Source: Elusimicrobiota bacterium (GTDB lineage Bacteria; Elusimicrobiota; Elusimicrobia; FEN-1173). From it: a stretch of DNA of 64,000 nt. Below the pieces are notes generated by a model. It was not told the DNA's origin, did not search any database, and saw only the letters and a list, made by a program, of their open reading frames with translations. Positions 2,999 to 33,686 of this stretch are shown here, one piece after another (the stretch's first letter is position 1; every line of letters starts with the position of its first letter). A program made the translations under genes and the position numbers. The stretch lies in the NCBI GenBank assembly GCA_016714745.1, contig JADKCG010000001.1, positions 129,236-193,235 of the forward strand, written 5' to 3'.

Positions 2999-4225
2999 CT
3001 CCTGCCCCAGATCCTCGGCCAACAAAAGGGCTTCGGCGATTTCTTTCATGGATTTTCGACGGTCCATGCTCTGTTTTTGGATTTCGCGGAAAGCTTCGGG
3101 TTCCGAAAGTCCTCGTTTTTTCATGAGCGCGCCCTTGGCCCGTTCCACGAGCTTCCGTGTCTCCAGCGCTTCCTGAGCAGAAAGCTTTTCTTGAAGAAGC
3201 CGTGTTTGCATAATGGCCGAGGCACATTGGTTGGCCACCGATTGCAGAACCGAAATATCTTCCTTTGAGAAGTCGTATTCCTGGGCAGAGTAGGTGTTGA
3301 TAACGCCCAACACCTTTTCTTTGAACATCATGGGCAGGGACAGCAGGGAGACCAGTCCTTCGGACACCGCGATGTCGGGATAAGAAAACCGTTTATCTTT
3401 CCGCACATCGGCCACGACGATCGGTTTTTTCTCCAACACCGCCCGGCCGGACAAGCTTTGGTCCACGGGAACCGGCGGTTTGTTGCGGTAGGCGTCCGAC
3501 AGCGACTGGGTGGCCGCGATGCGGAGCTGACGTTTTTCTTCGTCCAACAACATCACCGAACAAATCTTCGAGCCCAAAAGCGACGCTGTCATGGCCACAA
3601 TCAATTGGAGAATTTCGTCCATGAACCGATCGGAAGTGACGGTCCGACTCACGGCGGAGAGGGTTTGGATCGCGTCGGCTTTTCGCCGGGTTTCTTCGTA
3701 GAGCCGAGCGTTTTTCAATGGCGCCGCCCACCTGCCGGGCAATGGTCGTCAATAGTTTTAAGGCATGTTCACTGTAAGCGTAGGATTTTTTGTGTTGGAC
3801 GTTGATGACGCCCACCACCCCGTCTTTCACCAATATCGGAACGGAAAGGAACGCCTCGAACTTGTCTTCCGGCAGGTTGTGGAAAAACTTAAACCGATGG
3901 TCTTCATGGGCTTTTCCGGGATGGAGAGGGGTTTTTTGTGTTCCGCGACCCAGCCGGTCAATCCTTCTCCCATGCGCAATCGCAGTTGGTCGATCTCTCC
4001 TGGGTGGGGCGGTTTTGACGCCGACAACACCAGGCTTCGATGCGACGGCTCATGCAGGTAAATGAAACACGCGTCCGCCTTGGTCAACCCGCTGACCAGG
4101 GCAACAATTTCCTGCAAGATGGTGCGCAGGTCAAGGGTGGATCCAATAATGTGCGTGATGCGATGCAATAAATCCAATTCTTCGGTAGTGGAAAGAGAAC
4201 GCGGAACAGTTTTGGCGCGAGGCAT
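2999..4225 (-). CDS. GAF-GAF-ANTAR RNA-binding antiterminator-type regulator (two homopolymer frameshifts; no stop before nadE in the present frame)
   Basis: GAF domain 1 (ORF 3827..4225), continuation in a second frame (KFFHNLPEDKFEAFLSVPILVKDGVVGVINVQ), GAF domain 2 and an ANTAR motif (ETRKLVERAKGALMKKRGLSEPEAFREIQKQSMDRRKSMKEIAEALL) in a third frame. An AGGAG sits 8 nt before the ATG at 4225. Confidence 0.6.
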
Positions 4226-10550: not shown

Positions 10551-11487
10551 TCAGGGGTGTTCCGCCAACCAACGTTCGGCTTGGATGGCGGCCATGCACC
10601 CCTGGCCGGCGGCAGTAATTGCTTGGCGGTACGTGTGGTCCACGCAGTCTCCCGCGGCAAAAACACCTTCGATGTTGGTGCGGGTGTTTCCGTCGGTTTT
10701 TAAATAGCCCACGTCGTCCAGGTTCAAAATCCCCTTAAAAAGTCCGGTGTTTGGTTCATGTCCAATGGCGAGGAAAAGTCCCGCCGCGGACAGAGGTTCG
10801 ATGGCCCCGGTTTTGACGTTTTTTAATTTCAACTGTTCGAGGGTTTTGTCTCCGCTCGAGTCCTCGAGCGTGTAGGGCGTTTTGATCGTGATTTTGGGGT
10901 TCGCCTTCACGCGTTCAAGCATGACGCGGGAGGACCGGAACTCGTCCCGCCGATGAATCAGAATGACCTGGGAGCCGAACCGGGTCAAATACAAAGCCTC
11001 TTCCATGGCCGTGTCGCCGCCGCCAATGACGGCGATGGGTTTGTTGCGGAAAGAGGGAGCGCGCCGTCGCAGGTGGCGCAGGCGGAAATACCTCGGTTCC
11101 AAAATTTGGCTTCGCCTCGTTGTGGAGTCGTTTGGCCGTGGCACCGGTGGCGATGATCACGGCTTTGGCGAAATACTCCGCTTCGTCCGTCACAATCTTA
11201 AAAGGGCGTTTGGAAAAATCGACGGAGTCGACGTCCTTGTCTAATACTTCCGCGCCAAACCGTTCTGCCTGTTTGCGCATGCGGTTCATGAGTTCGGGCC
11301 CCATGATGCCGTCAGGAAAGCCCGGAAAATTTTCCACCTCGCTCGTGGTCATCAACTGTCCGCCGGACTGGCCTCCCTTCATAAATCCGCCCAAAACAAG
11401 CGGTTTTAAATCCGCCCGAGACGCATATAAGGCCGCCGTATAGCCGGCAGGCCCGGAACCGATAATGATAACGTTGTGTGCATTCAT
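10551..11487 (-). CDS. trxB: thioredoxin-disulfide reductase (frameshift near 11100)
   Basis: [25 protein letters not shown] (FAD GxGxxG motif) from the ATG at 11487, with GAGGGG 8 nt upstream. The C-terminal half is in ORF 10551..11144 ([17 protein letters not shown]…[10 protein letters not shown]). Confidence 0.75.
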
Positions 11488-12030
11488 GGAATTCCCCTCA
11501 GTAGTTTTCTTGAAACGGAAAGAGTAACGCAACACGTCTCGGATAAGCAGAATACTTACGGGCGTGCCGTCAGGCCTCAACACGGGGACATGCCGGTGGC
11601 CGCCCATGGCCATTTTATTGAGGGCGTAGGCGATGGGGTCTTCGGGGTGCACATAGCTGGGGTCGCGGGTCATGATCTCTGCCACTTTGACCTTGGACAG
11701 ATCGGTGTGGACGCCCGCCACCCGCAGAAGCAAATCCCGGTTCGAGAGGATCCCCACCATTTTTTGGTTCTGATACACCAAGACACAGCCTTTTTTTCCT
11801 TCTGGAAAATTTTGACAATTTTTCTCGATGGAATCGTCGGGGCTGCACACCAGCAAATCGAGGCCTGTCAGCAGTTCCGACACCGGTTCGTTCAAAAGGG
11901 CGTCCTGAAATGCGTCGCCCTTCCGCCGAGAAGCGGGAATGTCACGTTTCATCAACGAATGCAAACACTGGGCGCAATGGTCGGCGCCCAAGGGGTATTC
12001 AAAACCGCAAAAAGGGCATGAGTTTTTCAT
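11488..12030 (-). CDS. zinc-ribbon + CBS-pair domain protein (no stop before trxB in the present frame)
   Basis: CPFCGFEY…CAQC zinc ribbon followed by two CBS motifs. A one-base deletion in the AAGAAAACT run would restore a TGA overlapping the trxB ATG (ccATGA). Confidence 0.5.
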
Positions 12031-13058
12031 TGGACCGTCCAGGTGGAATCGTCATAGAGAAGGTTCTTTAAGTTGCCGCGTCCTTCTTTTTTGATCACTG
12101 TTTCAATTTGTTCATTTAAGAGATCATCGTAGGTCGGTTTTTCCACACAACGGAACACGCCGAAGGGAACGGGGAATTCAGGGTAGACCAACTGCGTTAA
12201 CAGGTAGGCGTGGTTGGGCCGGGGGTCCGCCTCGTCATGAATCATAAGGGCCTGCGTATTGGTGGCATCAAAGCCTACTATCTCCGGGTAAAGCCCATTC
12301 AAACGGATCGACTTTTTTTTTGTCGGGCCGGCCAAAAACCAACGGTTTGCCATGTTCCAGGTAACCATGCGGTCTTCGCGCGTGTCGCGCCCGTCACGGG
12401 GCGTGGGTCTTATCGTTAAAAATGATGCAGTTCTGATAAATTTCGATGAAAGAGACGCCCTTGTGCCGCATGGCCCGTTCGAACATGGCGCCCATGTGGC
12501 GGGGGTCGGTGTCGAGCGTGCGGGCGATAAAAGTGGCTTCGGACGCAATGGCCAGGCAGAGCGGGTTGATGGGATGCTCGATGGATCCATAGGGGGAGGA
12601 TTTGGTCACTTTCCCCATGGCCGAGGTGGGGGAATATTGTCCTTTGGTGAGCCCATAAATTTGGTTGTTGACCAGAGGATATTGAAGTTGAGGTTTCGCC
12701 GCATGGCGTGGAGGATGTGGTTTCCTCCAATGGAAAGGCCGTCCCCGTCCCCCGTGATCACCCAAATGGAGAGGTCCTTATTGACACAACGGAGCCCTGT
12801 GGCCACAGTGGGAGCTCGACCATGGATCGTGTGGAACCCATAGGTGTTCATGTAATAGGGAAACCGCGACGAACACCCGATACCGGAAACAAAAACATAG
12901 TTCTCCCGTGGGATATCGAACTTGGCCAGGGTCTGCTGGACAGTTCCTAAAATCGAATAATCGCCGCACCCCGGGCACCAGCGCACTTCCGCGCCCGAAA
13001 CAAAATCGTTCTTGGTGTATTTCGGTCGCGACGCGCCAACGGGTAAGTTGACTTCCAT
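12027..13058 (-). CDS. korB: 2-oxoglutarate:ferredoxin oxidoreductase beta subunit (TPP-binding), two frameshifts
   Basis: [11 protein letters not shown] and [12 protein letters not shown] (ORF 12606..13058), [11 protein letters not shown] (ORF 12394..12765), and the C-terminal part in ORF 12027..12590. Confidence 0.7.
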
Positions 13059-20078: not shown

Positions 20079-21775
20079 GCTTGAGAAAGAACTTCCAGAA
20101 ATTGTTCTCCATACTGCGCCAGCTTGGCAGGGCCGACGCCTGAAATGCCGCGCATTTCCTCGAGGGTTTTGGGTTGAACCGCCGCCATACGGGCCAAGGT
20201 GGAATCGTGGAAGACCACAAAGGCGGGGAGATTTTTTTTGTTGGCCAACTCTCGGCGGAGAGTTTTAAGGCGCTCGAATAGGGGGCCGATGTGGGGCGCG
20301 GGGCTTTCAATTGATGTGCTGGCCCGTTTCGAACCCTTTTGACGGGGGGAATCAAAGGCGTCGGTCTTATCAACCAGCGACGGCCGCGGAAGTTGGGCTC
20401 GGGCCTTGTCCCAGGTGACTCCCAAACAGATATCACAGGAGGTCCCACAATTCTCCATGGTTTCCTCAAAATGGGCCGAAAGGCCCCGGTGGCGGCAATG
20501 GGGGCGGTCCGCCCAGCGGAACATCTCCCGGGACCGTTGGTTCATTTCTGCCGCGAGGGCGGCATCGTTCGATTCGGTGGGGAATCCGTCGTAGGCCATG
20601 ACATCCGCCCAAGAGTAAAACAGCAAGCAGTCGGAGGGGTTCCCGTCCCGCCCGGCGCGGCCGATTTCTTGGACATAGCTCTCGATGGATCTCGGCATCT
20701 CGCGGTGGATGACGAACCTGACGTTGGGTTTGTCGATCCCCATGCCGAAGGCGATGGTGGCCACGGCCACGGGTGTTCTCCCCGCCAAAAAATTATCTTG
20801 CACCCGGGCCCGTGCCTGGTCGGACATCCCCGCGTGGTAGGCCTCCGCTTTAATGCCTTTCCCGCGGAGAAATTCCGCCAGGGATTCCACGTTCTTGCGT
20901 GTCATGCAATAGATGATTCCGCTCTCGCCCGCCCGTCGGCGCAGATAATCCACCAGTTCTTTCCGAAGATCTCGGCCTTCGCCTTTCTTTTGGGCAATGA
21001 TCCGCAAATTCTGACGGAAAAAGGTTCCCTTGAACCCTTCGGGCTTGACCATGCCCAACTGGCGGATAATGTCCGCCGCCACTTTTCGCGTGGCCGTCGC
21101 CGTGAGCGCCAAAATGGGGACATCTCCCAACTGGGCCTTCAACCCTGACAGCTTTCGGTAAGCCGGGCGGAAATCGTGGCCCCAGGAACTGATGCAGTGG
21201 GCTTCGTCCACCACCACGAGCTTGATCGGGCACCCTTGAAGAAATTCCCGCAGGGACCCTTCCAAGGCTTCCGGTGCCAGGTAGACCAAGTCCCACTCCC
21301 CGCGATGAAGGCCGCCCAAGCGTTTCCGACGTTCCTCGAAGGAGACGGAGGAATTAATCACCGTTGCACGGAACCCCTTCAGGAGGAGCGCGTCCACCTG
21401 ATCTTTCATAAGCGAAATGAGGGGGGAAATGACGAGGGTGGGACCGTTTAAAAGTTTTGCGGGCAATTGGAAGGTGAGTGATTTCCCCGCCCCCGTCGGC
21501 ATCACCGCAATGCAGTCCCGCCCCGCCAACACGGCGTTGATCACTTTTTCCTGCCCCGGTCGAAACGTTTCATACCCAAACGTCTGGCGAAGGACGTCAA
21601 AGGGCGAAAGCTGATTTTCTCTAGGGATCAGTGTCGAAACGGGTGCGGACGGAGGTTTCACGACAACCCCATTGGCTCTGCTCTGGGGGGCGAGGGGCGC
21701 CGTCGTTAACCCGAGACGCCGTTTTAAATCGTCGTTTTCCTGTTTCAGCCGAAGAAGCTCTTGTTCAATGTCCAT
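20075..21775 (-). CDS. recQ: ATP-dependent DNA helicase RecQ
   Basis: [56 protein letters not shown], a zinc-binding C4 segment and a C-terminal HRDC-like region. 566 aa. Confidence 0.85.
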
Positions 21776-23222
21776 TTTGTTTTTCCTCTGGAGGGCTTCT
21801 CCGCCAATTCACGGCGGCCAGTTGGCCTTGGCGGGCTTCGTCGGCGGCTTCGGCGAGGATGCGGGATGTTTCTTGGGGGGCGTGGAATCCCATGGAATTT
21901 TCGGCGGCAACGAAATCTAGGCGCCATTGGGCTTTGCGTTGGTGGTCGTAGGAGAGTTGAAGATCTTTGGGGGTGGCTCCCTCCTTCTTTGCCTGGGCGA
22001 TGGCGTCGAATTGGTCCATCAGCGCTTTCGCGGCGCGTTGGAGCAGGGCGTGGTTGCGGTCTTGAATAATGTCCACGCGGGATTGGATCTCCGCTTCGGA
22101 GAACCGGTGACAGGATTGGCAGGCGCGGTTGATGTTAAGGAGAGGGCTTCGCAACCAATGGTCCGACACTTTGGTCGCGCCGTCCCGTTGGTAGGGCATA
22201 TGGCAATCGGCGCAGGCCACGCCACTTCGGGCGTGGATGCCTTGGCTCCACAATTCGAACTCGGGGTGTTGGGCTTTGAGCACAGGGGCGCCTGTTTCCG
22301 CGTGATTGAAATCTGAAAAAGGGGTTCCGTCTTTAAACTTCGTTTCGTTCCAATGCCGTTCGAGATCCTCCGCTTTGAGCCCTTTGCTCCAGGGGAAGGT
22401 CAGCGGCATTTTGGTTCCGCAATAATATTCCACGTGGCATTGGCCACAAACGAAAGAGCGCATTTCCGTTCGCGAAGCTTCGGTGTTGGGGTCGTAGGGT
22501 GTTTTTCGGTCGCCCGCGCGCCAGCGTTCGATGGACGGCATGGGCGCCACGGGCGCGTCGGAGGCGGCCAAGGATTGGATCCCAAGAATGAAACCGGGGC
22601 GCGTGACGCGCAACCTCATGGTTTTTGGATCGTGGCAATCCACGCAGGAAACCGGGTGCGCGTGGCCGGACTCATGCAAAGCGGAATTCATTTCTTTGTA
22701 CGTCAGGGTGTAACTTTTTTCAAACCCTTTCATGGCATCACCGTCGCCCATTTTCCGATACAGGGGCATGATGGAGGCGTGGCAATGCAAACAGGACCCC
22801 GATTGGGGTTTGGTGAGCCGTTGGGTGGCTTCTTGGTCAGCCAGCATATACGCGTGGCCGCGCCGATCTCGGTAATCAATGGAAAAGGCATAGCCCGCGA
22901 ACATGCGTTTCAGCCAAGGGTTTTGGTCCATTTTTTCTTGGGGCATGGCTTCGCTTCCGCCGTGGCCGCCGTAGCGGGTTTTGGTGGTCTGGGCGGTCAA
23001 TTTGTAGGAATCATATTCCTTGGGCCAATTGATCCCCCAATGGGCGGGGTCGGTGTCGTCTTCCGTCACGTCCACGAGTCGGACATAAGGGTTGCGCGCT
23101 TCGCTTTTCCGCTCAAAAATATTCACCAAAAGAGCGGCCACGAGTGCGGCGCCGATGGCCGCGCCCAACACGATGAGAGCATGGAACCGCAACCCCATCA
23201 AACGACGAATAAGATATTTCAT
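21765..23222 (-). CDS. nrfA: pentaheme cytochrome c nitrite reductase (ammonia-forming); all five motifs are CXXCH
   Basis: CLHCH, CVDCH, CGQCH, CADCH, CQSCH. The likely start is MKYLIRR at 23222, with AGGAGGT 9 nt upstream. The ATG overlaps the nrfH TGA. Confidence 0.85.
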
Positions 23223-23719
23223 TTTTCGTTTACCTCCTGAATTTGATTCGGTTCGTATCGCCCCATCCCCATCCGTTCGCCATGACCAACCGAGGAATGG
23301 CAATGAACACATCGAAATGTTTCGTCTTTGTTTTTTAGAGGTTTAAGGTCATGCACCATCGCCGCGTGGCATCTCACGCAGTTCTCCTGAAGGACCGCGG
23401 CTCCGCGAGGGGAAATGACGATGGGTTCATGAAAGTCCTGAAACGTAAACCCCTTGGAGTGGCGGTAGCCGTTATCGGATTTGGCAATGTATTTGGCCGG
23501 AAACGTTTGGGGCAAGTGGCAGTCCACGCACGACGCCGCCGTGTGATGACTGGCTTTCTGCCACGCATCGAATTGTGGCCCCATGATATGACAATTAAGG
23601 CAAGCCCGCGCGTCCGTTCTGAAATACGAAAACCCCGCCGCGTATTGAAACGTATAAATCCCAAGCCCCGCAAAAAGTCCCAGACAAAGAGCGGCCCACA
23701 GTCTCCAATCGTTTTTCAT
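23219..23719 (-). CDS. nrfH: NapC/NirT-family tetraheme cytochrome NrfH (membrane quinol dehydrogenase)
   Basis: One TM helix and four CXXCH motifs (CLNCH, CVDCH, CVRCH, CVHCH). Confidence 0.8.
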
Positions 23720-23764
23720 CCATTCAATCTTAGGAAATAAAACCAAGGAACTGAAATAAGAAGA

Positions 23765-23866: not shown

Positions 23867-26800
23867 TTATTTTATTATGGCGAGTTTGCTGATTTCTCGG
23901 ATTTTTTTCCCTTCTTTTTCTGCTTCTACGGCCCAGTAATATGTTCCCGCCGCCATGTTTTCGGTTGACCAAACAGATTCAAAGGCCTGCCACCCGTTGG
24001 ACGTCTCGACAATTTGGGCGGGGGGGGTGTCTAAAACCAGTTGCCCTGTCAGGGAATAGATTTTTTGGCTAAAGCGGTCCGCGTTTTCAACCTCCACCCT
24101 CAGGGTCGCCACGCCTCCGGAGACCGGGCTGGGTCGAGCATAAAAATCTCCGATCCTCACTTCGTTGCCGGGGGTGGGGGGCGGGACATCCATTGGTTCT
24201 ACAGCAAAGGCCAGGTCGTCGTAGTCGTCGTAGTCCCCCGCGCTACAGACTCCCGCGGTTCCTTGGTAACGGAAATTGGCACGGACCGCGTGGATCGTCC
24301 CGCCCGCTGGAAGCGTGAACGTACTCGAAAGGATCGTGGATCGGGTGGCGTTCGGTCGAAGGGTCGCGATGAGAGACCACGCGGGGTGTGCCGTGTCGGA
24401 GGAGATGTACAGGTCCAAATAATTGTTTTTTGTGGAATAGGCCCACACTTTGGCGTCGACTCGGACCAGGGATCCCGCTTTCAAGGGTCGCCCATTGAGC
24501 GAGGTCACCTGAACCCAATCGTTGGATTCGTCATTGTGGTATCGTCCAGACGCCCCGTCCGCGCACCCACCGAGAACGGTGTTGGGTTGATTGGGTTCTG
24601 GGAATTTATCAACCTCGCTTCGGGCTTCCAGCAGGCCGCCCGAGGCGCAGGCCGCGCCGGGGCGAGAACACAGCGGAACCCCAAGGAGGGGGTCGAAAAG
24701 GGCGACGGTTCGGCCGTTTTCAATGAGGACGGATCGATCGTCGTCCTGGCTGTGATCGGCTGAATCAAAGGAGCGCGCCGTGACCTTATGGGCACCATCG
24801 TTTAATTGGGTGGTGTCAAGGGAATAGGTCCAGGTCGTGGTTTGGGCGTAAGTGTGGACAAACGGCGTGGGTTCCCTTTCTCTCTCGGACCCAATACTGG
24901 CCTGGGGCGGCGGGGATCCAAAAACGGTTGTCCAATAGTGACCGTCCACCAAGAGGTCCACGCGCGATAGAGTGTTCTCGTCAAACGAACGTCCGGTCAC
25001 CTCGACGGTTCCTGCCACGATGGCACCGTTCTCCGGGCTCGTGATCCCCCCTATGGGCGATTCTTCGTCCGATGACACAAACGTCGCGGTGCTGGAATAC
25101 CCGATATTTCCCACATTATCCCGCGAAACGGCCCGGTAGTAATACAACGTGCTGGGGGGAAGAGCAGAGATGTCCGCTTGGTGGATGGCGGTGAACGCCG
25201 TTTGCTGGGGGGAGAGGAGACCCAACGCGGGAGACGTGCCGTATTCGACTTGAGTGTCCGAAGGTTCGTCGGTGGTCCATGTCAACCGCACGTTATTATC
25301 GGAAACGACCACATTGAGCGCGGATAAAAGCGGAGGTTGAATGTCCGGAATCACGGTGACAGTGATGGTGTGCGACGAACGGAAATTCGATGCGTCCACA
25401 GCGGTGGCTGTCAACGTGTGAGTGCCCAGAGAGAGTCCCAGGGTGGTCAGCGTGGCGCGGTAGGGGGGGGAAGTGTCGTTTCCGAAGACGGTCGATCCGT
25501 CCAGAATGAACTGAACATAATCAATCGCCACGTTATCAAATGCGGCGGCCTCCACCGTTACGGTTCCAAAAATATCACTGTTCGGTGCCGGAGAATTGAA
25601 GACCACCGTGGGTGGAGTGGTATCGTTAATAACGGTGACATGGAATATCCGTTCGGCCGTGTTTCCCGCAGAATCATAGGCTCGAACTCCCACCGCGTGG
25701 GGCCCCGCACCTGCGGCCCCGGCGTTCCAGGTATACGCGGCTGTGAAGTGGGAACTCTCTTCGGTTGTGGAACTTGAGGAAACGAGAATTCCGTTGACAA
25801 GGAATTCAATTCGGGAAATTCCATAATCGTCCGTGGCGGACGCGCTGAGGGAATAATCCGCCGCGGGGATGTCCACGTTGTCGTTGGGACTCACGGAAAG
25901 GAATTGAGGGGCGGTGTGATCTATCCGGACGGGAGAGACCTTAAACGTGACGTTGGTGCCCTCGGCATCCGTCGCGGTGAGCCTCAATGTGTAAAGTCCC
26001 TCCGGGAGGGCTCCGGTGTTCCACAGGCCCAAAGACCCGTTCGTCACCGAACCTGTCGACGCTGTTCCGATGGGATAAAACGATGAGGGCGATCCCCCTG
26101 ACCCGTAGTCTAATCGGCGGGAAGAGATCGCCGTCCCATCCGCAGATCCGCGCACATCGACGACGTTGCCGACAGGGGCGAATTGATGGGGGGAAGTGAT
26201 TGTGACGTTCGGGAACGTTTTTGCTTGGAGGGTTTTGAACGCGTTGATTCGCCCAAACCCGGATTGGGTATCGAATCCGGCGGCCCCCACATCGTCGGCC
26301 GATTGCCGGATGGCTTGGCGCACCTGTTCGTTGGTGAGTGAGGGGTGTTGAGAAAGGAGGAGGGCCGCGAGCCCCGCCACATGGGGGCAGGCCATGCTGG
26401 TTCCGTTGTAGGAGCTGTAATATCCCCCCGGGACTGTGGACTGAATGCCAACTCCCGGAGCCGCCACGTCGATTTTTGCCCCAAAATTTGAGAATGATGC
26501 CATCACATCCGCTGAATTGAAAGCGGAGACAGTCACCACAGAGTCATATTTCGCTGGAAGGAATTGGGAGGCATCAATGGCGCTGTTTCCGGCGGCCGCC
26601 ACCAAGACCACTCCCAGAACGCGGCGTATCGCTTCTTCAATCACGGGGGAATCCCCGGTTCCGCCCCAACTCATGTTAATCACATCCGCGCCGTTGTCCG
26701 CGGCATAGACAATGCCTTGGGCTAAATCCACGTCGTAGCCGCTTCCGTCGTCGTCCAGCCCTTTGATCGCCATGACATGAGCGGACGGCGCCACACCAAT

Positions 26801-27424
26801 GACCCCCACTCCGTTATTTCCCACTGCCGCAATCGTTCCGGACACGTGGGTCCCGTGGCTGTGCCCGTCGGATATAGAATTCGTGTTGGCGACGAAATTC
26901 CATCCCCGCACGTCGTCCACATAGCCGTTGCCATCATCATCAATGCCGTTCCCTGTGATTTCGCCAGGGTTAGACCATATGTTAGAGGCTAAGTCAGGAT
27001 GGGTGTGGTCCACCCCGGTGTCCACCACCGCCACCACGACCCCGTTTCCCTGTGCCATGTCCCATGCCGAAGGGGCCTGGATTTTCGCCATGCCCCACAG
27101 ACCGGGGTAGGCGGGATCGTTGGGGACCCCTTGAATTCGAAACACGCGCACCGGTTCCGCCCATTCAACGTTGGGATTAGATCGATACTCCGAAAGGGCC
27201 TGAGAAAGTTCGGCCCCAGGAGCCAATTCCAGAACGGCCGTTCGGCGGAAAGTGGTACGGAGGTCTTTTGCTTGGGCGGGTCCGGATTTGGGCGCGCGTG
27301 CGGCGACCTGGCTGACCGGGGCGGCGGTGCCTTTTTTCATATGGGGTTCGGTTCCCCCGTGGTGGACGCGTGACAATGATTTCACGCCCCACCGGGCGTG
27401 AAGTTTTTGAACCCCTTTTGGCAT
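23867..27424 (-). CDS. large secreted subtilisin-family (S8) serine protease with Ig/FN3-like repeats and a T9SS-type C-terminal sorting domain
   Basis: I9-like propeptide, then S8 Asp/His/Ser motifs (VAVVDTGVD…HGTHVSGTIAA…GTSMACPHVAG). C-terminus …KIYSLTGQLV…GTYYWAVEA…KLAIIK. The signal peptide seems to lie upstream in another frame (MSKHPTPFISFVLGSFFG, about 27460-27640). Confidence 0.8.
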   Translation of the reverse strand: MPKGVQKLHARWGVKSLSRVHHGGTEPHMKKGTAAPVSQVAARAPKSGPAQAKDLRTTFRRTAVLELAPGAELSQALSEYRSNPNVEWAEPVRVFRIQGVPNDPAYPGLWGMAKIQAPSAWDMAQGNGVVVAVVDTGVDHTHPDLASNIWSNPGEITGNGIDDDGNGYVDDVRGWNFVANTNSISDGHSHGTHVSGTIAAVGNNGVGVIGVAPSAHVMAIKGLDDDGSGYDVDLAQGIVYAADNGADVINMSWGGTGDSPVIEEAIRRVLGVVLVAAAGNSAIDASQFLPAKYDSVVTVSAFNSADVMASFSNFGAKIDVAAPGVGIQSTVPGGYYSSYNGTSMACPHVAGLAALLLSQHPSLTNEQVRQAIRQSADDVGAAGFDTQSGFGRINAFKTLQAKTFPNVTITSPHQFAPVGNVVDVRGSADGTAISSRRLDYGSGGSPSSFYPIGTASTGSVTNGSLGLWNTGALPEGLYTLRLTATDAEGTNVTFKVSPVRIDHTAPQFLSVSPNDNVDIPAADYSLSASATDDYGISRIEFLVNGILVSSSSTTEESSHFTAAYTWNAGAAGAGPHAVGVRAYDSAGNTAERIFHVTVINDTTPPTVVFNSPAPNSDIFGTVTVEAAAFDNVAIDYVQFILDGSTVFGNDTSPPYRATLTTLGLSLGTHTLTATAVDASNFRSSHTITVTVIPDIQPPLLSALNVVVSDNNVRLTWTTDEPSDTQVEYGTSPALGLLSPQQTAFTAIHQADISALPPSTLYYYRAVSRDNVGNIGYSSTATFVSSDEESPIGGITSPENGAIVAGTVEVTGRSFDENTLSRVDLLVDGHYWTTVFGSPPPQASIGSEREREPTPFVHTYAQTTTWTYSLDTTQLNDGAHKVTARSFDSADHSQDDDRSVLIENGRTVALFDPLLGVPLCSRPGAACASGGLLEARSEVDKFPEPNQPNTVLGGCADGASGRYHNDESNDWVQVTSLNGRPLKAGSLVRVDAKVWAYSTKNNYLDLYISSDTAHPAWSLIATLRPNATRSTILSSTFTLPAGGTIHAVRANFRYQGTAGVCSAGDYDDYDDLAFAVEPMDVPPPTPGNEVRIGDFYARPSPVSGGVATLRVEVENADRFSQKIYSLTGQLVLDTPPAQIVETSNGWQAFESVWSTENMAAGTYYWAVEAEKEGKKIREISKLAIIK

Positions 27425-27654
27425 GCCTTTTAATCGCCCGGCGGGCGCGGTGTCTTCCGTTAGGGAAAGACCCGTGGCCGACTCGGATCGGAACCGGACG
27501 ACGATGCGTTTGTCTCCTTTGTTTTATCCGACGAATTTTTAAGGGCGGGCAACGGGAGTTGGACCACGAACAACCGCCCCGGTCCAAAGAAGGACCCCAA
27601 AACAAAGGAAATAAATGGGGTGGGATGTTTGCTCACGATGGATGGTCTCCTTGT

Positions 27655-28605
27655 TCAGAATTCCCATGTCAATGTCGCGTGTTGGGTGGCGGGAGCTCCC
27701 GCGTCAGCCAGATCTTCCCCTGCGGGTTGGAAGGCGTAATCCAAACGAAACTTGCCCAGGAAGACTCCGATTCCGCCGACCAGTTGACCCAATCCCGATT
27801 GTCCCTCCGCTCCGGTTTCCGCCACGTAGTGTCCCCGCAACGCAAGGATATTCCGATCCGATAATCTGCGCCCAAAGAAATGTTCATTAAATCTTGCTGG
27901 GTCTGGTAAGACCCTCCACCTATTACGGCGAACGTTGAGAGCGCTTGATAGGACGCGGATAACCCAAAAGAAGTTGGAAGCGCCGAACGATCCGTTAAAA
28001 GTTTTGGTCCTTGCCCCAGATTCAGCGCCGTGGCGGCCAGAGTGAGAGGAACCCCTTTGATCCGATGGCGAAAGCCTAGATCGATGGCGAGGCCCGTCCC
28101 GTTGTATCGATCGATGCGAGACTGGATCCCTTTGACGCTGGCGCCGCCCGCGATCTCAATGTCACGCATCACGAAAGAGTGAGCCGCGTGAAGGCCCACC
28201 ATTTGGTCTTCATGGTTAAATTCTCCCGCGTGTTCTCCCGACTCGGTTCGACGCTCAAGCCCCTCAGAGCGAAGAGTCGTGTAACTGATCGCGATGGTCG
28301 TATGAATCGGCTGGAGGGGCCAACTCAACGCTGTTCCGTTCAGTCTGGTGTCCAGGGGCATTTGTCGATATGTGGCGTTCCATTCCCGTTTCGCGCCCGA
28401 CAATCCCGCGGGGTTCGATCCCAGGGAGTCCAGACCGGAGAGAAAAGCGCCCCCTTCGCCCACCGCCGTGGCCGCCGCCGAACGGTCCAACAAGGGGAGA
28501 GAAATAACACTTTCCTGGGCGTCCAGCTTTAACCCCAGACAGAAGAGGCCAAGAAAGTTCTCACCGCGGTTCTCATTTTTTCCCTCACAATGGGCGCACG
28601 AAAAA
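27655..28605 (-). CDS. outer-membrane beta-barrel protein (PorP/SprF- or PorV-like candidate), two frameshifts
   Basis: Signal peptide MRTAVRTFLASSVWG (ATG at about 28605). Main body in ORF 27669..28493 (…GSNPAGL…). The C-terminal strand ends …TLTWEF* (ORF 27655..27840). Confidence 0.45.
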
Positions 28606-28828: not shown

Positions 28829-30138
28829 GTGGGAAAGAGTCAAAGCAAGGCATCTTTTAAGAAGGCGGGTTTGCCCCCTTCCGATTACACCCCTGAGTTG
28901 ATTCGCCAGTGCGCCCAAGCCAAGGAGGCCAGCCGGATCCTGGCGGTGACCCCCGTGGAACAACGCAACCGGCCCTCCTGGCCATCTCCGACGCTTTGGA
29001 GAAAAATAAGGCTGATATTCTCTTTCGAAACGAAATCGACTTGGAAGCGGGCCGGCGGGCGGGACTCACTCCTTCGCTCCTGGATCGTCTGGCTCTCACG
29101 GATCGGCGGGTGATGGACATGGCCAAAGGGCTTCGTGACGTGGCCGCGTTTCCCGACCCTTTGGCTGATGTCCTGGACGGTTGGGACCGGCCCAACGGGC
29201 TTAAAATTCAAAAGGTGCGGGTCCCCCTGGGTGTCATCGCCATGATTTATGAGGCTCGGCCGAACGTGACGGTCGACGCCACCGGGTTGTGCATTAAGTC
29301 GGGGAACGCTGTTGTTCTTCGAGGCGGCAAAGAAGCGGTGGATTCCAATTCGATTTTGGTCCATGTGGTTAAAGACGCGCTGGTCAAGGCGGGGCTCCCC
29401 GCGTCTTCTGTTCAGTTCGTGGGAACCACGGACCGTTCGGTGATCCGGGATTTGGTCCGCTTGGACCGGTTCATTGATCTGGTGATCCCGCGCGGGGGCG
29501 AAGAGATGGTAAGCGCCATTCGCGAAATGGCGACCGTCCCCGTTCTGTCCCATGGAAGAGGACTCTGCTCGGTTTTTGTTGATAGGGAGGCGGACCTGGA
29601 AATGGCGGAACGGATTGTTTTGAACGCGAAGATTCAGCGGCCCGGCGTTTGCAACGCCATGGAGACGCTTCTGGTCGATCGTGATATCGCCGCCGAATTT
29701 ATCCCTCGGATCGTGCGACGATTGGCGGAAAAAAATGTGACTGTCCACGGCGACAGCGAGACTCAAAAACGGGGAGGAGGGGCGGTGACGCCCGCCCTCC
29801 CGGCCGATTTTGATACGGAGTTTCTTGGCCTTGAACTGGCCATGAAAGTTGTGGGTTCGACGGATGAAGCCATCGCCCACATTAATGCGCACGGAAGTCA
29901 CCATTCCGACGCCATCGTCACGACCAACGAGGAGACGGCCCGGAAATTTTTGGCCGGGGTGGACTCTGCCGCAGTATTCCATAACGTGTCCACCCGCTTT
30001 CACGACGGGGGTGAATTGGGGCTGGGAACTGAAATGGGTATTTCTACCCAAAAACTGCATGCCCGGGGAAGCATGGGGATGAAGGAGCTCACCACCACCA
30101 AATATCTTATCCGAGGGTTCGGGCAAGTCCGGGAGTGA
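28829..30138 (+). CDS. proA: gamma-glutamyl phosphate reductase (frameshift near 28975)
   Basis: N-terminus ELIRQCAQAKEASRILA in the frame of ORF 28802; the rest in ORF 28909..30138. A GTG start at about 28829 follows AAGGGGGA. Confidence 0.8.
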
Positions 30139-30734: not shown

Positions 30735-31315
30735 TCTCCAGGAATGTCCTTATTCGGTCGGAACTGGCCCGTGAACTTTCGTCGTCGCGAGTGGATCATT
30801 CTCAATCGGTGGCGCGTTGGGCGAGCGTCTTGGCCCGTCTTCACGGGGCTGACCCCTCGCGTGCAGAACGGGCGGGATGGTTCCATGATTTGGCGAAGGA
30901 GTGGCGTTCGTCCCGTCTGACGGCCTATGTGCGAGCCCATAAAATTGCGGTTCCGCATCTCCGGCTCATATTGGCCCACAAGCGCGCAGGGCTCTTACAC
31001 GGCTACGTCTCCGCCCATCTCGCCCAGCGGCGAGGGCTGGTTCCGGACCGTCAAACGCGTGTGGCCATGGCTCGGCATACGCTGGGCCATGTGCGCATGG
31101 GCCTCCTGGACAAAATCCTTTACGTGGCGGACTTCTCTTCCCCGGACCGGCGTTACGCGCAGGCGGTTCGCGTGAGGCGCTGGGCCCGCCGGGATCTGGA
31201 CGAGGCCCTGCGTTTAACTGTTTCGTATAAAATAGGGGATGTCGTCCAGCGTTCGGGGTTTCTGCATCCGACAACTGTGGCCCTATGGAACGCGCTGTGT
31301 AAGGAACAGGCGTGA
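30731..31315 (+). CDS. yqeK: HD-domain phosphohydrolase YqeK
   Basis: HS…GWFHDLAK HD motif. ATGA overlap with nadD, the canonical nadD-yqeK pair. Confidence 0.7.
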   Translation: MISRNVLIRSELARELSSSRVDHSQSVARWASVLARLHGADPSRAERAGWFHDLAKEWRSSRLTAYVRAHKIAVPHLRLILAHKRAGLLHGYVSAHLAQRRGLVPDRQTRVAMARHTLGHVRMGLLDKILYVADFSSPDRRYAQAVRVRRWARRDLDEALRLTVSYKIGDVVQRSGFLHPTTVALWNALCKEQA

Positions 31316-32433
31316 ATAAAACGACGCTCGGGGTTCGTTTAATAGCGGGGGTTGGCCTGGGAGGGGTGGTCGTTTTGGGGTTTCTCTCCGCCACATCCGA
31401 TGTGGCTTGGGCGCTCCGCCTCGGGGATCCCGTTGTGGGAGTGGTCATTGGAACGGATCTGGCGGATCACGCGCCCCATTCGGATACGCTCATGGTATGG
31501 ATCTACCGCCCGACGGAAACACGCCTGGATGTGCTGTCCATTCCCCGGGACACAAAAATAGACTTGCCAGGATACCGTTTTCGACGTATAAATGAAGTGT
31601 TCGCTTACCACTACGGCCAAGGAGGCGACGGGGATCTGTCGGCCGGGAAAGTGTGCGAGGCGGTGGGGGCTCTTTTTGCGAAGGCCCGGGCGACCTTGCA
31701 ACCCCCGTACTATGTGCAAGTCGATTTTGACGGGTTCCGTCGAGTGATCGACCGTTTGGGCGGCGTGACGGTGATGGTGGATGAGCCCATGGACTACGAT
31801 GACAATGCGGGCAATTTTCACGTCCATTTGGCAACGGGCGTCCATCATTTGGCAGGGGGAGAGGCGTTGGGATTTGTTCGTTATCGCGGACGTAGCGGCG
31901 ATCGGGGTCGGATTCTCCGCCAAATGGAATTTGTCCAGGCTCTTTTCAAGCGGCTGGCGTCTCCGGAAATTGTGTGGCGCGGACCGCGGGCCATGGCAGA
32001 AGTCTTTAACGCGGTCCACACGAACCTGGCGCCTTGGGACATGGTCTTCTTGGCGGTGGAGGCCCGGCGTCTCACCTCTCAACAGGTGAACACCGTTTTA
32101 CTGCCGGGCCGTCCCAAGGGCGCGACCTGGGAAATGGATGTGGAACGGACCGCTTTCATCCTGGAACGGTTGGGGAAAGGGAAAATGGCCGACGAGACGA
32201 AGGGGCCTCTTCTTCCGGAAGGAGATGAGCCGGAATCGACAACGGCTGTAGATGTGTCGATGGCGCCCCCGGTTGTTGAGGGGACGTCCGCGAAGCAGAT
32301 CACCGTAAAGGTCTGGAACGCCTCCGGGCGTCTGGGGTTGGCCATTAAAGTGGTGCGGCGGTTTCGCGCGGCGGGGTTTGATGTGGTGGAATGGGAATTA
32401 CTCCCAGCGACAGAACAAGAGCCGGGTGATTGA
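31312..32433 (+). CDS. LytR-CpsA-Psr (LCP) family protein
   Basis: N-terminal TM helix, then LCP core (VLSIPRDTKIDLPGY…RRINEVFAY…QVDFDGFRRVIDRLGGV…LRYRG) and a C-terminal LytR_C-like domain. Confidence 0.75.
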   Translation: MNKTTLGVRLIAGVGLGGVVVLGFLSATSDVAWALRLGDPVVGVVIGTDLADHAPHSDTLMVWIYRPTETRLDVLSIPRDTKIDLPGYRFRRINEVFAYHYGQGGDGDLSAGKVCEAVGALFAKARATLQPPYYVQVDFDGFRRVIDRLGGVTVMVDEPMDYDDNAGNFHVHLATGVHHLAGGEALGFVRYRGRSGDRGRILRQMEFVQALFKRLASPEIVWRGPRAMAEVFNAVHTNLAPWDMVFLAVEARRLTSQQVNTVLLPGRPKGATWEMDVERTAFILERLGKGKMADETKGPLLPEGDEPESTTAVDVSMAPPVVEGTSAKQITVKVWNASGRLGLAIKVVRRFRAAGFDVVEWELLPATEQEPGD

Positions 32434-32585
32434 TCGCTCGGTCAATTCGACAGAGCTCGGAAAGTGGCGGCATCGTTGGACGTGGTGTCAATTTATTCAG
32501 ATGTAGATCCGGGCCTTCGGACCGATGTGGACGTTATTCTGGGCGAAGATTTAGGATCAAATGAGAGCCGTCAAGGAGCCCCCTC

Positions 32586-33686
32586 ATGGAAATGATCGAG
32601 ATTTTACAGGCCGCGGTGAAACAAGGAGCGTCCGACGTGCATCTCTTAATCGGTCGCCCTCCCATGACGCGAATGAACGGCGAAATGCTTGAAATGGCGA
32701 GCTTCGACCCTCTGTCGGCGGAAGAATCTAAGCGCATGATCTATTCCATTCTTTATGATGAACAGAAGCAGAATTTTGAGGAACACTTGGAGCTGGACTG
32801 CTCTTTTGCCATTCCCGGCCTGGCGCGGTTCCGCGTGAACGTGCTCCTTCAAATGAATGGAATCGAATGCGTGATCCGGGTGATCTCTTCAAAAATTCCC
32901 ACCCCCGACGAGATCAAACTGAATCCCGCCACGCTGGAATTTGCGAACCTTCCCCGGGGGCTGGTGCTCGTCACCGGAGCCACCGGACATGGAAAGTCAA
33001 CGACCCTCGCGTGTCTCATTGAACTGATTAACCAGGCCCGCCGCCAACACATCTTGACGATTGAAGATCCCATCGAATTTGTTTATGAACCCAAACGGTG
33101 CGTTATCCGTCAGCGGGAGGTCGGGGCTTCCACCCACAGTTTTCAGGAGGCTTTGAAACATGCTCTCCGGCAGGACCCGGACGTGATTTTGATTGGAGAA
33201 ATGCGGGACGTGGAAACGATTTCATTGGCGCTTACGGCCGCGGAGACGGGCCACCTTTGCTTCGCCACCCTCCATACCACCGACGCCGCTCAAACCGTGG
33301 ACCGCATAATCGACGTTTTTCCTCCTCACCAACAACAGCAGGTCCGCGTGCAACTTTCGACGGTGCTGAAAGGGGTCATTTGCCAGACGTTGCTTCCCAC
33401 GTCGGATGGAACGGGCCGGGTGGCCGCCCGGGAAGTGATGGTGGTGACTCCGGCCATCTCGAACCTTATCCGAGAAGGCAAGACCCATATGATCTACAAC
33501 GCCATCGATACGGGTTCCAAAGCCGGGATGATCCCGTTGGACCGGGCCATGGCGGATTTGGTCAATAGCGGGACGGTGTCCTTTGACGACGCGTTGGCTA
33601 AATCATCGGACCCCGAGAAACTGAGGGACCTCACCGGCCGCTCCGCCAGCGGACGGGGCGGCGGTTCGCGGGCCCCGGTCTACTGA
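32586..33686 (+). CDS. pilT: type IV pilus retraction ATPase PilT
   Basis: Walker A GATGHGKST and LTIEDPIEF. AAGGAG sits 8 nt before the ATG. Confidence 0.85.
   Translation: MEMIEILQAAVKQGASDVHLLIGRPPMTRMNGEMLEMASFDPLSAEESKRMIYSILYDEQKQNFEEHLELDCSFAIPGLARFRVNVLLQMNGIECVIRVISSKIPTPDEIKLNPATLEFANLPRGLVLVTGATGHGKSTTLACLIELINQARRQHILTIEDPIEFVYEPKRCVIRQREVGASTHSFQEALKHALRQDPDVILIGEMRDVETISLALTAAETGHLCFATLHTTDAAQTVDRIIDVFPPHQQQQVRVQLSTVLKGVICQTLLPTSDGTGRVAAREVMVVTPAISNLIREGKTHMIYNAIDTGSKAGMIPLDRAMADLVNSGTVSFDDALAKSSDPEKLRDLTGRSASGRGGGSRAPVY

What the first reader, a model, noticed from the sequence alone, without database searches (positions are those of the whole stretch)
23867..28605. T9SS-type cargo protease next to an outer-membrane beta-barrel gene in a high-GC, non-Bacteroidota-looking genome
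The 1185-aa S8 subtilase ends in a typical type-A Por/T9SS C-terminal sorting domain (…YSLTGQLV…GTYYW…KLAIIK). The divergently adjacent gene encodes a roughly 315-aa outer-membrane barrel with a terminal Phe and an NPAGL-containing N-terminal region, which is a PorP/SprF- or PorV-like candidate. Together they suggest a dedicated cargo and outer-membrane-partner pair for type IX secretion. This hints that the organism belongs to or borders the FCB group despite its GC content.
Basis: partly seen in the sequence, partly recalled or inferred. Interest (0 to 1): 0.55.

Follow-up and report, generated by a model that had tools for sequence, protein, structure and literature searches.

The report
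Surface protease with dedicated PorV-like barrel
In a bacterium of the phylum Elusimicrobiota, outside the group where type IX secretion is known, a large secreted protease carrying a type-IX-like sorting tail is encoded in a conserved two-gene unit with its own small PorV-like outer-membrane barrel; such tails are common in this phylum.

Summary
Both genes are real, but several details differ from the finding.

**Barrel.** It lies on the same strand as the protease, 18 nt upstream, not divergent. It is 307 aa, and only after two 1-nt deletions are repaired. It is PorV/PorQ-like, not PorP/SprF-like (NCBIfam PorV_fam E=1e-16, 61.6 bits, cutoff 90). The modelled fold is a 14-strand FadL/PorV barrel.

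**Protease.** It is an intact S8 subtilase, but a third frameshift cuts off its signal peptide. Its tail scores below the curated type-A CTD cutoffs. A profile of this CTD family nevertheless finds the PorU and PorZ CTDs as the best matches in the whole PDB.

**Organism.** It is an Elusimicrobiota MAG, not a member of the FCB group.

**Conservation.** The barrel-then-protease operon is kept in seven independent relatives. Close copies of the CTD sit at the extreme C-terminus of many unrelated giant proteins. Every one that carries an organism name is from Elusimicrobiota. Several of these also have an adjacent PorV-family barrel.

**Best reading.** This is a cargo and cognate shuttle/anchor pair within a CTD sorting system that is widespread in the phylum.

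**Limits.** I could not test whether SprA, PorK-N or PorU exist in these genomes. The frameshifts are probably long-read assembly errors.

This is a new variant of a known kind, of moderate interest.

The parts
27655..28576 (-). PorV/PorQ-type outer-membrane barrel gene. It encodes 307 aa once two 1-nt deletions are repaired. It has a signal peptide (MRTAVRTFLGLFCLGLKLDA|QES), an N-terminal NPAGL hatch motif and a C-terminal Phe.
   Evidence: Three-frame reading. NCBIfam PorV_fam 61.6 bits, E=9.5e-17 (cutoff 90), and PorQ 58.3 bits. The AF2 model of the 78%-identical orthologue has 14 strands and an N-terminal plug, and matches FadL and T9SS-complex chains.
28546..28547 (-). Frameshift 1 in the barrel gene: one base missing relative to relatives (GGCC-TCTTC).
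   Evidence: DNA alignment column 45; frames.
27852..27853 (-). Frameshift 2 in the barrel gene: one base missing (GGAAAT in a relative, GG-AAT here).
   Evidence: DNA alignment column 740; tblastn frame change at 27852.
27460..27636 (-). True 5' end of the protease gene: GTG start and Sec signal peptide (…FISFVLGSFFGPGRLFV…). It is out of frame with the main ORF because of a third 1-nt indel in an A-rich run near 27515-27530.
   Evidence: Three-frame translation compared with the orthologue N-termini. tblastn of the L001 orthologue matches from 27523.
23867..27523 (-). Main body of the S8 subtilase gene: the stop-to-stop frame, with a 1185-aa ORF from ATG 27424. The frame upstream of the ATG still encodes the conserved propeptide (KRIVVRFRSESATG…).
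26252..27049 (-). Peptidase_S8 catalytic domain (residues 126-391). It is the most conserved part: 0.85 mean identity to the window sequence across 8 orthologues.
   Evidence: Pfam 227.6 bits; conservation profile.
24725..26065 (-). Stalk of Ig-like and FN3-like domains (Big_7 x3, Big_13, Big_3_3, Pur_ac_phosph_N), about residues 454-900.
24143..24724 (-). Cys-containing domain of about 190 aa with no family match (about residues 900-1094). It is well conserved among orthologues (0.74).
   Evidence: No Pfam hit; conservation.
23870..24142 (-). C-terminal beta-sandwich sorting domain (CTD), type-A-like, residues 1095-1185.
   Evidence: Below threshold on PF18962, TIGR04183 and CHU_C. All 6 orthologues hit PF18962, best 1.6e-5. 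NF052323 C-terminus at 2.4e-6. AF2 pLDDT 93, 8 strands. The family profile finds PorU at 5.1e-5 and PorZ at 1.1e-3 as the top PDB hits. There are 322 relatives, always at the C-terminus.

Best explanation
The locus is a two-gene operon of an Elusimicrobiota bacterium. The first gene encodes a 307-aa PorV/PorQ-type outer-membrane barrel with a 14-strand FadL fold. The second encodes a subtilisin-like protease of about 1,250 aa. That protease has a Sec signal peptide, a propeptide, an S8 catalytic domain, a long Ig/FN3 stalk and a type-A-like C-terminal sorting domain.

Proposed mechanism:
1. Sec exports the protease to the periplasm. This is inferred from the signal peptides of the orthologues.
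2. The C-terminal beta-sandwich is the outer-membrane sorting signal. Its homology and its modular C-terminal position are shown here. Its function is inferred.
3. The co-expressed barrel is the cognate receptor for that tail. It shuttles or anchors the protease on the cell surface, as PorV holds PorU, PorQ holds PorZ, and PorP/SprF-like barrels hold their neighbouring type-B cargo. This step is inferred.

The pair belongs to a CTD-based sorting system that is widespread in Elusimicrobiota. There, several large cargo proteins each have their own adjacent PorV-family barrel. What moves the cargo across the outer membrane is not known; it could be a SprA-type translocon or something else. The three frameshifts in the window copy are most likely assembly errors.
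For: - **Pairing.** Barrel then protease, on the same strand, with gaps of 4-275 nt as called, in L001, L003, L006, L008, L010, L011 and L012, at 52-78% barrel identity.
- **Barrel homology and fold.** PorV_fam E=9.5e-17 and PorQ E=6.6e-16. The family HMM hits a barrel that passes the PorV_fam cutoff at 2.7e-18. The AF2 model has 14 strands and a plug. Foldseek matches FadL 2r88_A at 6.8e-10 and T9SS-complex chains 8gl6_F at 6.4e-9 and 6h3i_F at 7.4e-8.
- **CTD homology.** All 6 orthologues hit Por_Secre_tail and CHU_C. NF052323 C-terminus scores 2.4e-6. The CTD-family profile ranks the PorU CTD (5.1e-5), PorZ (1.1e-3) and a Por CTD chain (0.015) top of 177,635 PDB sequences.
- **The CTD behaves as a modular tag.** There are 322 relatives at E<=1e-3, nearly all matching the last ~100 residues of proteins of 74-4502 aa. 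All 8 that carry an organism name are Elusimicrobiota. Some pass TIGR04183.
- **Other cargo-barrel pairs in the phylum.** L011 has a propeller/FN3 protein with a CTD next to a barrel scoring 125.9 bits on PorV_fam. L018 and L019 have 1700- and 2192-aa CTD proteins followed after 9-10 nt by a PorV-family barrel.
- **Sec export.** Orthologues carry signal peptides.
- **Assembly errors.** nadE, a trxB-like gene and proA in the same window are also split by frameshifts.
Against: - No physical link between barrel and CTD was tested.
- The barrel (52-67 bits against a cutoff of 90) and the CTD (15-19 bits against 23 and 27) both fail the curated family cutoffs.
- The CTD fold search returned only generic Ig domains.
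- Some Elusimicrobial CTD proteins have no adjacent barrel (L015, L017). Pairing is therefore not obligatory.
- The CTD is no more conserved than the other non-catalytic domains (0.66 against 0.62-0.74).
- No T9SS core gene was seen in any sequence examined. The outer-membrane crossing step therefore has no candidate machine.
- If the three frameshifts are real, this copy is dead.
Confidence: 0.55

Rival explanations
1. One reading: an ordinary cargo of a complete, canonical T9SS (SprA, PorK/L/M/N, PorU and the rest) together with its general PorV or a PorP/SprF partner, in an organism that is, or borders, an FCB-group member.
For: The CTD and barrel are homologous to T9SS parts. Many CTD-tagged proteins in the phylum imply some general export machine.
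Against: - The organism is Elusimicrobiota, outside the FCB clade.
- There is no PorP/SprF match.
- This barrel is linked to a single cargo, and other cargoes have their own barrels. In Bacteroidota one PorV is reported to serve all type-A CTDs (PMC12618676).
- Surveys and reviews place T9SS only in Bacteroidetes or the FCB group (PMC4793230; PMC12398890).
- No core gene was found in the window ORFs scanned.
Confidence: 0.15
2. The barrel is a FadL-type uptake channel for hydrophobic products such as lipids or peptides. It is merely co-expressed with a feeding protease and has no role in sorting the protease.
For: The best structural matches include E. coli FadL (2r88_A, 6.8e-10). The NPA-type hatch motif is shared by the FadL superfamily. 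A PorV/PorQ-annotated barrel in Brachyspira, outside the FCB group, has been read as FadL-like (bioRxiv 10.1101/2025.01.03.631275).
Against: - Sequence similarity is to the PorV/PorQ models. The FadL model PF03349 did not match this barrel.
- PorV-family barrels sit next to CTD proteins that are not hydrolases: a propeller/FN3 protein and laminin-G/TIG proteins. Shared metabolism would not predict that.
Confidence: 0.12
3. The protease-barrel pair is a functional analogue of PorU-PorV. A CTD-bearing protease tethered to a PorV-like barrel would remove or process the CTDs of the phylum's other cargo proteins.
For: The pair is syntenic among housekeeping genes across the clade. The best solved-structure match of the CTD profile is the retained CTD of PorU. 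The same MAG has other CTD proteins without a barrel that would need processing.
Against: - The barrel family is narrow: 21 clusters and 2 species in the genome collection. The CTD, by contrast, is spread across the phylum.
- S8 proteases are common ordinary cargo. A second S8-CTD protease exists without a barrel.
- PorU is a C25-type enzyme, not a subtilase. This rests on established knowledge and was not tested here.
Confidence: 0.08
4. In this particular genome the operon is decaying. The three frameshifts are genuine, and both genes are pseudogenes.
For: Four single-base indels fall within 27.5-29.1 kb, including one in proA. The downstream neighbourhood has also been rearranged relative to relatives, with NrfH/NrfA in place of SpoVG/IspE.
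Against: - The 3.5-kb protease body is otherwise open, with its catalytic motifs intact.
- One deletion shortens a base run (GGAAAT to GG-AAT), and the protease frameshift lies in an A-rich run.
- Essential-looking genes elsewhere in the window (nadE, trxB-like, proA) are split too. That is typical of indel errors in long-read assemblies.
Confidence: 0.1

Closest known systems
PorV (T9SS shuttle) and the PorV/PorQ family, NCBIfam NF033709
   Same: - Sequence homology over almost the full length (E=9.5e-17).
- A 14-strand FadL-type barrel with an N-terminal plug and an NPAG motif, and a terminal Phe.
- Structural matches to chains of the SprA-PorV translocon entries 6h3i and 8gl6.
- Association with CTD-bearing proteins.
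   Different: - It scores 61.6 bits against a cutoff of 90. Orthologues score 52-67.
- It is about 300 aa, against 345-367 aa for the matched PDB chains.
- It is genetically tied to one cargo rather than serving all type-A cargo.
- It occurs in a non-FCB phylum.
- No SprA partner is known.
The PorU-PorV and PorZ-PorQ sub-complexes of the P. gingivalis attachment complex
   Same: In both, a large surface protein is held at the outer membrane through an uncleaved type-A-like CTD bound to a PorV/PorQ barrel. The Elusimicrobial CTD profile's two best PDB hits are the PorU and PorZ CTDs. NCBIfam PorZ and PorU C-terminal matches recur in the relatives.
   Different: - The enzyme here is an S8 subtilase, not a C25-type sortase or a propeller protein.
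- Whether its CTD is retained is unknown.
- To my knowledge (not checked here), the P. gingivalis genes are not adjacent, whereas these are an operon.
Type-B CTD cargo with cognate PorP/SprF-like shuttle proteins (for example SprB-SprF)
   Same: The genetic logic matches: a cargo gene sits next to the gene for its own outer-membrane barrel, which determines secretion or localisation (PMC12618676; PMC9143113 listed).
   Different: There is no sequence match to PorP/SprF or to type-B CTD models. Here both the barrel and the tail belong to the type-A/PorV lineage.
T9SS type-A CTD (TIGR04183 / PF18962) and the related FlgD Ig-like domain (PF13860)
   Same: - An extreme C-terminal beta-sandwich of about 90 aa.
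- The GxY and K-x-x-[IV][IV]-[KR] end motifs. Relatives also carry the Y-x-[FY]-PNP-A motif.
- A modular tag found on many unrelated large proteins.
   Different: The window copy is degenerate (RPSP in place of PNP) and scores below the cutoffs. Two orthologues score better on FlgD_ig (4.6e-6) than on Por_Secre_tail.
FadL/TodX hydrophobic-compound channels
   Same: The fold and the hatch with an NPA motif. FadL is the top Foldseek hit.
   Different: There was no match to the FadL Pfam model for this barrel, and nothing in the gene context points to lipid or aromatic metabolism.

Membership tests
T9SS type-A C-terminal sorting domain (TIGR04183 / PF18962) | Score at or above the curated cutoff | tested here: not met
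   TIGR04183 gives 15.1 bits against 23. PF18962 gives 16.8 bits in the whole protein and 19.2 for the domain alone, against 27.
T9SS type-A C-terminal sorting domain (TIGR04183 / PF18962) | Homology to experimentally defined T9SS CTDs | tested here: met
   The profile of 21 family CTDs against all PDB sequences puts PorU 6za2_A (residues 1056-1154 of 1156, E=5.1e-5), PorZ 5m11_A (671-758 of 758, 1.1e-3) and 8glj_D (0.015) at the top. All 6 orthologues hit PF18962.
T9SS type-A C-terminal sorting domain (TIGR04183 / PF18962) | Sits at the extreme C-terminus of Sec-exported, otherwise unrelated proteins (a modular tag) | tested here: met
   322 relatives, nearly all with the match ending at the last residue, in proteins of 74-4502 aa. 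Orthologues have signal peptides.
T9SS type-A C-terminal sorting domain (TIGR04183 / PF18962) | Beta-sandwich fold | tested here: met
   The AF2 model has pLDDT 93 and 8 strands. The fold search returned only generic Ig domains, so this feature does not discriminate.
T9SS type-A C-terminal sorting domain (TIGR04183 / PF18962) | Secretion depends on T9SS and the CTD is removed by PorU | not testable with these tools
   This needs genetics or proteomics.
PorV/PorQ family (NF033709) | Score at or above the curated cutoff (90 bits) | tested here: not met
   The repaired window protein scores 61.6 bits and orthologues score 52-67. Other Elusimicrobial barrels next to CTD cargo do pass: 125.9 and 115 bits.
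PorV/PorQ family (NF033709) | 14-strand FadL-type barrel with an N-terminal plug | tested here: met
   AF2 model of the 78%-identical orthologue P0001 (pLDDT 75, pTM 0.73). Foldseek matches FadL and 8gl6_F / 6h3i_F. That these F chains are PorV is my reading of their lengths and the entry titles.
PorV/PorQ family (NF033709) | Binds CTDs and docks on SprA | not testable with these tools
   No complex prediction was available, and no SprA candidate is known.
PorP/SprF family (TIGR03519 / PF11751) | Any match to the family models | tested here: not met
   No hit at E<=1 in Pfam or NCBIfam.
Type IX secretion system (whole system) | Core genes (sprA/sov, porK, L, M, N, porU, porT, porW) present in the genome | tested here: inconclusive
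   None were found among the 20 window ORFs scanned, nor in the Pfam lists of about 150 kb of related Elusimicrobial loci. The rest of the assembly could not be read.
Type IX secretion system (whole system) | Host belongs to Bacteroidota or the FCB group | tested here: not met
   The host is an Elusimicrobia/Elusimicrobiota MAG, and that phylum lies outside the FCB clade.
Peptidase S8 (subtilases) | Family model above cutoff and the Asp/His/Ser triad motifs | tested here: met
   PF00082 gives 227.6 bits against 21.8. VVDTG, HGTHVSG and GTSMACPH are present in the translation.

The most novel reading that the evidence does not exclude
Elusimicrobiota may run a reduced, SprA-independent relative of type IX secretion. 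In it, a PorV-type barrel encoded next to each large cargo would be the cognate receptor for a type-A-like CTD, and perhaps also the export route. That would be a free-standing CTD-PorV module outside the FCB group. It could represent the ancestral core from which the Bacteroidota machine was elaborated.
Probability: 0.25. Interest if true: 0.8.

Novelty: new variant of a known kind. Interest (0 to 1): 0.5.

Why it matters
Reviews and genome surveys treat type IX secretion and its CTD signal as confined to Bacteroidota or the FCB superphylum (PMC12398890, PMC4793230). Here a different phylum carries many CTD-tagged giant surface proteins. It also shows repeated operonic pairings of such cargo with PorV-family barrels.

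If these genomes lack SprA and PorK-N, the pair defines a minimal sorting module. That would make the origin of T9SS, and the intrinsic function of PorV-type barrels, directly testable. If the genomes do have those genes, the known range of T9SS extends beyond the FCB group.

In practical terms, the barrel family is annotated only as 'hypothetical protein' in NCBI and now has a plausible role. The protease is probably a major cell-surface feeding enzyme in wastewater Elusimicrobiota, which are predicted to have few secreted proteins (PMC11495043).

Tried and rejected
- **Exact look-up of the window's own genes.** Neither the window's protease nor its barrel fragment was on record. I obtained context from homologues instead.
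- **CTD-only query in the word-indexed protein search.** It found nothing. The exhaustive phmmer search worked.
- **Six-orthologue CTD profile against the PDB.** It gave only a marginal Por CTD hit at E=1.7. The broader 21-sequence profile was needed.
- **Promoter and terminator scan of 23.6-29.0 kb.** It found no more sites than shuffled sequence.
- **CTD and barrel HMMs across the window.** No second CTD or PorV-like ORF turned up.
- **Literature searches.** Queries combining Elusimicrobia with T9SS, CTD, SprA, PorV and related terms found no paper linking them.
- **PorP/SprF identity.** Rejected, because there is no model match.
- **FCB affiliation.** Rejected on the taxonomy.
- **Profile search for more barrels.** It mainly recovered relatives of P0022, one of them named Zixiibacteriota. 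It added no named Elusimicrobial barrels.

Full report
**What is at the coordinates**

The 1185-aa ORF at 23867..27424 (-) is real. Pfam finds Peptidase_S8 at residues 126-391 (2.5e-67) and three Big_7 domains. It also finds weaker Big_13 and Big_3_3 hits and an FN3-like Pur_ac_phosph_N domain. The Asp, His and Ser motifs are visible in the translation.

The last ~90 residues hit CHU_C (17.4 bits), Por_Secre_tail (16.8 bits, cutoff 27) and TIGR04183 (15.1 bits, cutoff 23). All three are below threshold. The same stretch matches the C-terminal end of the NCBIfam model for a T9SS-dependent M6-like protein at 2.4e-6.

The neighbouring barrel gene is on the same strand, not divergent. In the window it is also not a single ORF. 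It starts at ATG 28576 in one frame (MRTAVRTF…) and continues in ORF 27669..28493. It finishes in ORF 27655..27840, which ends …TLTWEF*.

**The frameshifts**

Joining the three pieces gives a 307-aa protein. It aligns without gaps to twenty 306-317-aa homologues at 50-78% identity. A DNA alignment with two relatives shows that the window lacks one base at each junction. One of these is GGAAAT reduced to GG-AAT.

The protease has the same problem. Its orthologues are 1249-1277 aa and begin with a signal peptide (…FA|MV…). In the window that part lies in ORF 27460..27636, out of frame with the main body. The switch falls in an A-rich run near 27520.

proA next door is frameshifted too. So are nadE and a trxB-like gene elsewhere in the window. 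I therefore read these as indel errors of a long-read assembly rather than as gene decay. Only read mapping can settle this.

**Whose genome is it**

The barrel fragment as annotated is MBK8574249.1 (IPN90_00740). It is labelled 'hypothetical protein', from an Elusimicrobia MAG, on a 217-kb contig.

The only species-level genomes with this barrel family are two Elusimicrobia/Elusimicrobiota MAGs; their names suggest wastewater treatment (one is labelled EBPR). A distant third locus has 24% identity. Elusimicrobiota is a phylum outside the FCB clade. The suggestion that the organism is, or borders, an FCB member is not supported.

**Is the pair real**

Yes. In seven independent relatives the barrel gene is followed on the same strand by the orthologous protease. 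These are L001, L003, L006, L008, L010, L011 and L012. The gaps are 4, 31, 36, 114 and 275 nt as called, with barrel identity 52-78% and protease identity 63-75%.

Upstream, five of these show the proA-nadD-HD-LytR-PilT-PilT neighbourhood in their gene tables; L011 and L012 look similar by ORF order. Downstream genes vary. The window has NrfH/NrfA there, whereas most relatives have SpoVG/IspE/TPR/BamA.

In the window the barrel's stop (27655) and the protease's likely GTG start (27636) are 18 nt apart. This is an operon.

**What the barrel is**

The repaired barrel matches PorV_fam (NF033709) over nearly its whole length. The E-value is 9.5e-17 and the score 61.6 bits, against a cutoff of 90. 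It matches PorQ at 6.6e-16. There is no PorP/SprF hit at E<=1. Orthologues score 52-67 bits.

An AF2 model of the 78%-identical orthologue has pLDDT 75 and pTM 0.73. It shows 14 strands and an N-terminal plug that carries the invariant N-P of the NPAGL motif. Foldseek ranks E. coli FadL first (6.8e-10). Chains of the SprA translocon entries 8gl6_F (6.4e-9) and 6h3i_F (7.4e-8) follow among the top hits. I take those chains to be PorV from their length and the entry titles.

The family's own HMM hits a barrel that does pass the PorV_fam cutoff at 2.7e-18. The barrel is therefore a divergent, short member of the PorV/PorQ branch of the FadL superfamily. It fails the curated cutoff.

**What the tail is**

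All six orthologous tails hit Por_Secre_tail (best 1.6e-5) and CHU_C. Two hit FlgD_ig.

An exhaustive phmmer search of 1.84 billion representatives with the last 105 residues found 322 proteins at E<=1e-3. In nearly all of the 150 listed, the match ends at the final residue. The proteins range from 74 to 4502 aa.

Eight of the twenty clusters I looked up carry an organism name, and all eight are Elusimicrobia or Elusimicrobiota. They include another S8 peptidase, OmpL47-type and NHL/propeller proteins and an IPT/TIG protein. Several of these pass TIGR04183, with scores of 27.8, 35.2, 25.3 and 26.0 bits.

Their tails carry the canonical Y-x-[FY]-PNP-A, GxY and K-x-A-V-I-[KR] motifs. The window copy is a degenerate version with RPSP.

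With these relatives as an alignment, AF2 gives a confident 8-strand beta-sandwich (pLDDT 93). Foldseek returns only generic Ig domains for it. A 21-sequence profile searched against every PDB sequence is more informative. It ranks the CTD of PorU first (6za2_A, 5.1e-5), PorZ second (5m11_A, 1.1e-3) and an isolated Por CTD third (8glj_D, 0.015). The tail is thus a true homologue of the T9SS type-A CTD and behaves as a modular sorting tag across the phylum.

**Is cargo-barrel pairing a theme**

It is, at least in the loci I could read.

- In L011, the same MAG region holds a second pair. A 1172-aa DUF5122-propeller/FN3 protein has a C-terminus matching the PorZ C-terminus (4.6e-11). It is followed by a 320-aa barrel scoring 125.9 bits on PorV_fam.
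- In L018 and L019, CTD proteins of 1700 and 2192 aa are followed after 9-10 nt by PorV-family barrels. The L018 protein carries laminin-G and TIG domains. The L018 barrel scores 115 bits on PorV_fam, and both barrels hit our family HMM, at 2.9e-28 and 2.2e-36.
- Not all cargo is paired. A 1857-aa S8-CTD protease in the same MAG as L011 has no barrel neighbour, and neither do two adjacent CTD proteins in L017.
- Similar CTD-plus-PorV clusters occur in more distant loci. L013 has a PorV-OmpA fusion. L014 has a propeller-CTD protein with two tandem barrels, and one relative of its barrel is named Zixiibacteriota.

**Mechanism**

This sketch combines what is shown with what is inferred. The protease is made with a Sec signal peptide and a propeptide. 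Its CTD is the outer-membrane sorting signal. The co-transcribed barrel is the cognate CTD receptor that shuttles or anchors it at the surface.

The closest functional precedents are PorV-PorU and PorQ-PorZ, where CTDs are retained on a PorV/PorQ barrel. The gene arrangement resembles type-B cargo with neighbouring PorP/SprF-like shuttles (PMC12618676). Here a type-A-like tail is combined with a dedicated PorV-like barrel. In Bacteroidota, by contrast, a single PorV is reported to serve all type-A cargo.

I found nothing that identifies the machine that crosses the outer membrane. No core T9SS gene appeared among the 20 window ORFs I scanned. None appeared in the Pfam tables of roughly 150 kb of related loci. 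That is a small fraction of these genomes, so the result is inconclusive.

**Comparison with the literature**

TXSScan found T9SS in 60 of 97 Bacteroidetes genomes and in no other clade (PMC4793230). A 2025 review states that T9SS and CTD-containing proteins are limited to the FCB superphylum (PMC12398890).

A Brachyspira study notes a 'PorV/PorQ family' annotation outside the FCB group and reads it as FadL-like, with no link to CTD proteins. My searches found no paper that connects Elusimicrobia with T9SS parts.

Automated models would already label some of the phylum's proteins as PorV/PorQ family or type-A sorting-domain proteins. The raw observation is therefore latent in the databases, although this barrel family itself is annotated only as hypothetical.

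**Verdict**

This is a new variant of a known kind, namely a CTD cargo with a dedicated PorV-type barrel in a non-FCB phylum. Interest is moderate. It would rise sharply if whole-genome searches show that these bacteria lack SprA and PorK-N.

Noticed in passing
window 1299-3742, 10915-12600, 28829-30138: Other genes are split by apparent frameshifts. NAD+ synthase is in two ORFs (model positions 8-247 and 300-543). A thioredoxin-reductase-like ORF covers only model positions 2-122 of 300. proA changes frame near 28972-29074. This suggests a general indel error rate in the assembly.
   Followed up: partly
window 46250-50379: A low-GC stretch (0.48-0.51, against about 0.57 elsewhere) holds a 913-aa and a 506-aa ORF on the minus strand. 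Neither has any Pfam or NCBIfam match. The larger one has a signal-peptide-like N-terminus.
   Followed up: partly
window 21765-23746: NrfA (Cytochrom_C552, 403 bits) and an NrfH-like NapC/NirT cytochrome lie directly downstream of the protease. Relatives have SpoVG/IspE/TPR/BamA at that position, so nitrite ammonification genes were inserted or rearranged here.
   Followed up: partly
window 31303-32592: tblastn with the LytR/CpsA/Psr orthologue aligns in one frame past the stop of the 373-aa ORF (31312..32433). The window may contain an in-frame stop or an error there.
   Followed up: no
L011 15524-19959: A second cargo-barrel pair lies convergent to the first. It has a 1172-aa DUF5122-propeller plus three FN3 domains with a PorZ-like CTD, followed by a 320-aa barrel that passes PorV_fam (125.9 bits).
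   Followed up: yes
L018 10001-16017 and L019 10001-17560: Adhesin-like CTD proteins of 1700 and 2192 aa are followed after 9-10 nt by PorV-family barrels; the 1700-aa protein is named Elusimicrobia in NCBI. Upstream are conserved genes for a Peptidase_M15_3-like protein and an unannotated protein of about 285 aa.
   Followed up: partly
L013 8746-12882: An uncultured bacterium has a CTD protein that passes TIGR04183 at 38.4 bits. Next come a PorV_fam barrel fused to a FlgD-like domain and an OmpA C-terminal domain, and then another PorV_fam barrel.
   Followed up: partly
L014 7479-10903: A BNR-propeller protein with a classic PNP-type CTD is followed by two tandem PorV-like barrels (347 and 300 aa). 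The cluster sits next to lptC/lptA/lptB/rpoN. One relative of the second barrel is named Zixiibacteriota.
   Followed up: partly
window 24143-24724 (protease residues ~900-1094): A conserved Cys-containing domain of about 190 aa precedes the CTD (…FPEPNQPNTVLGGCADGASGRYHNDESNDW…). It has no Pfam match.
   Followed up: partly
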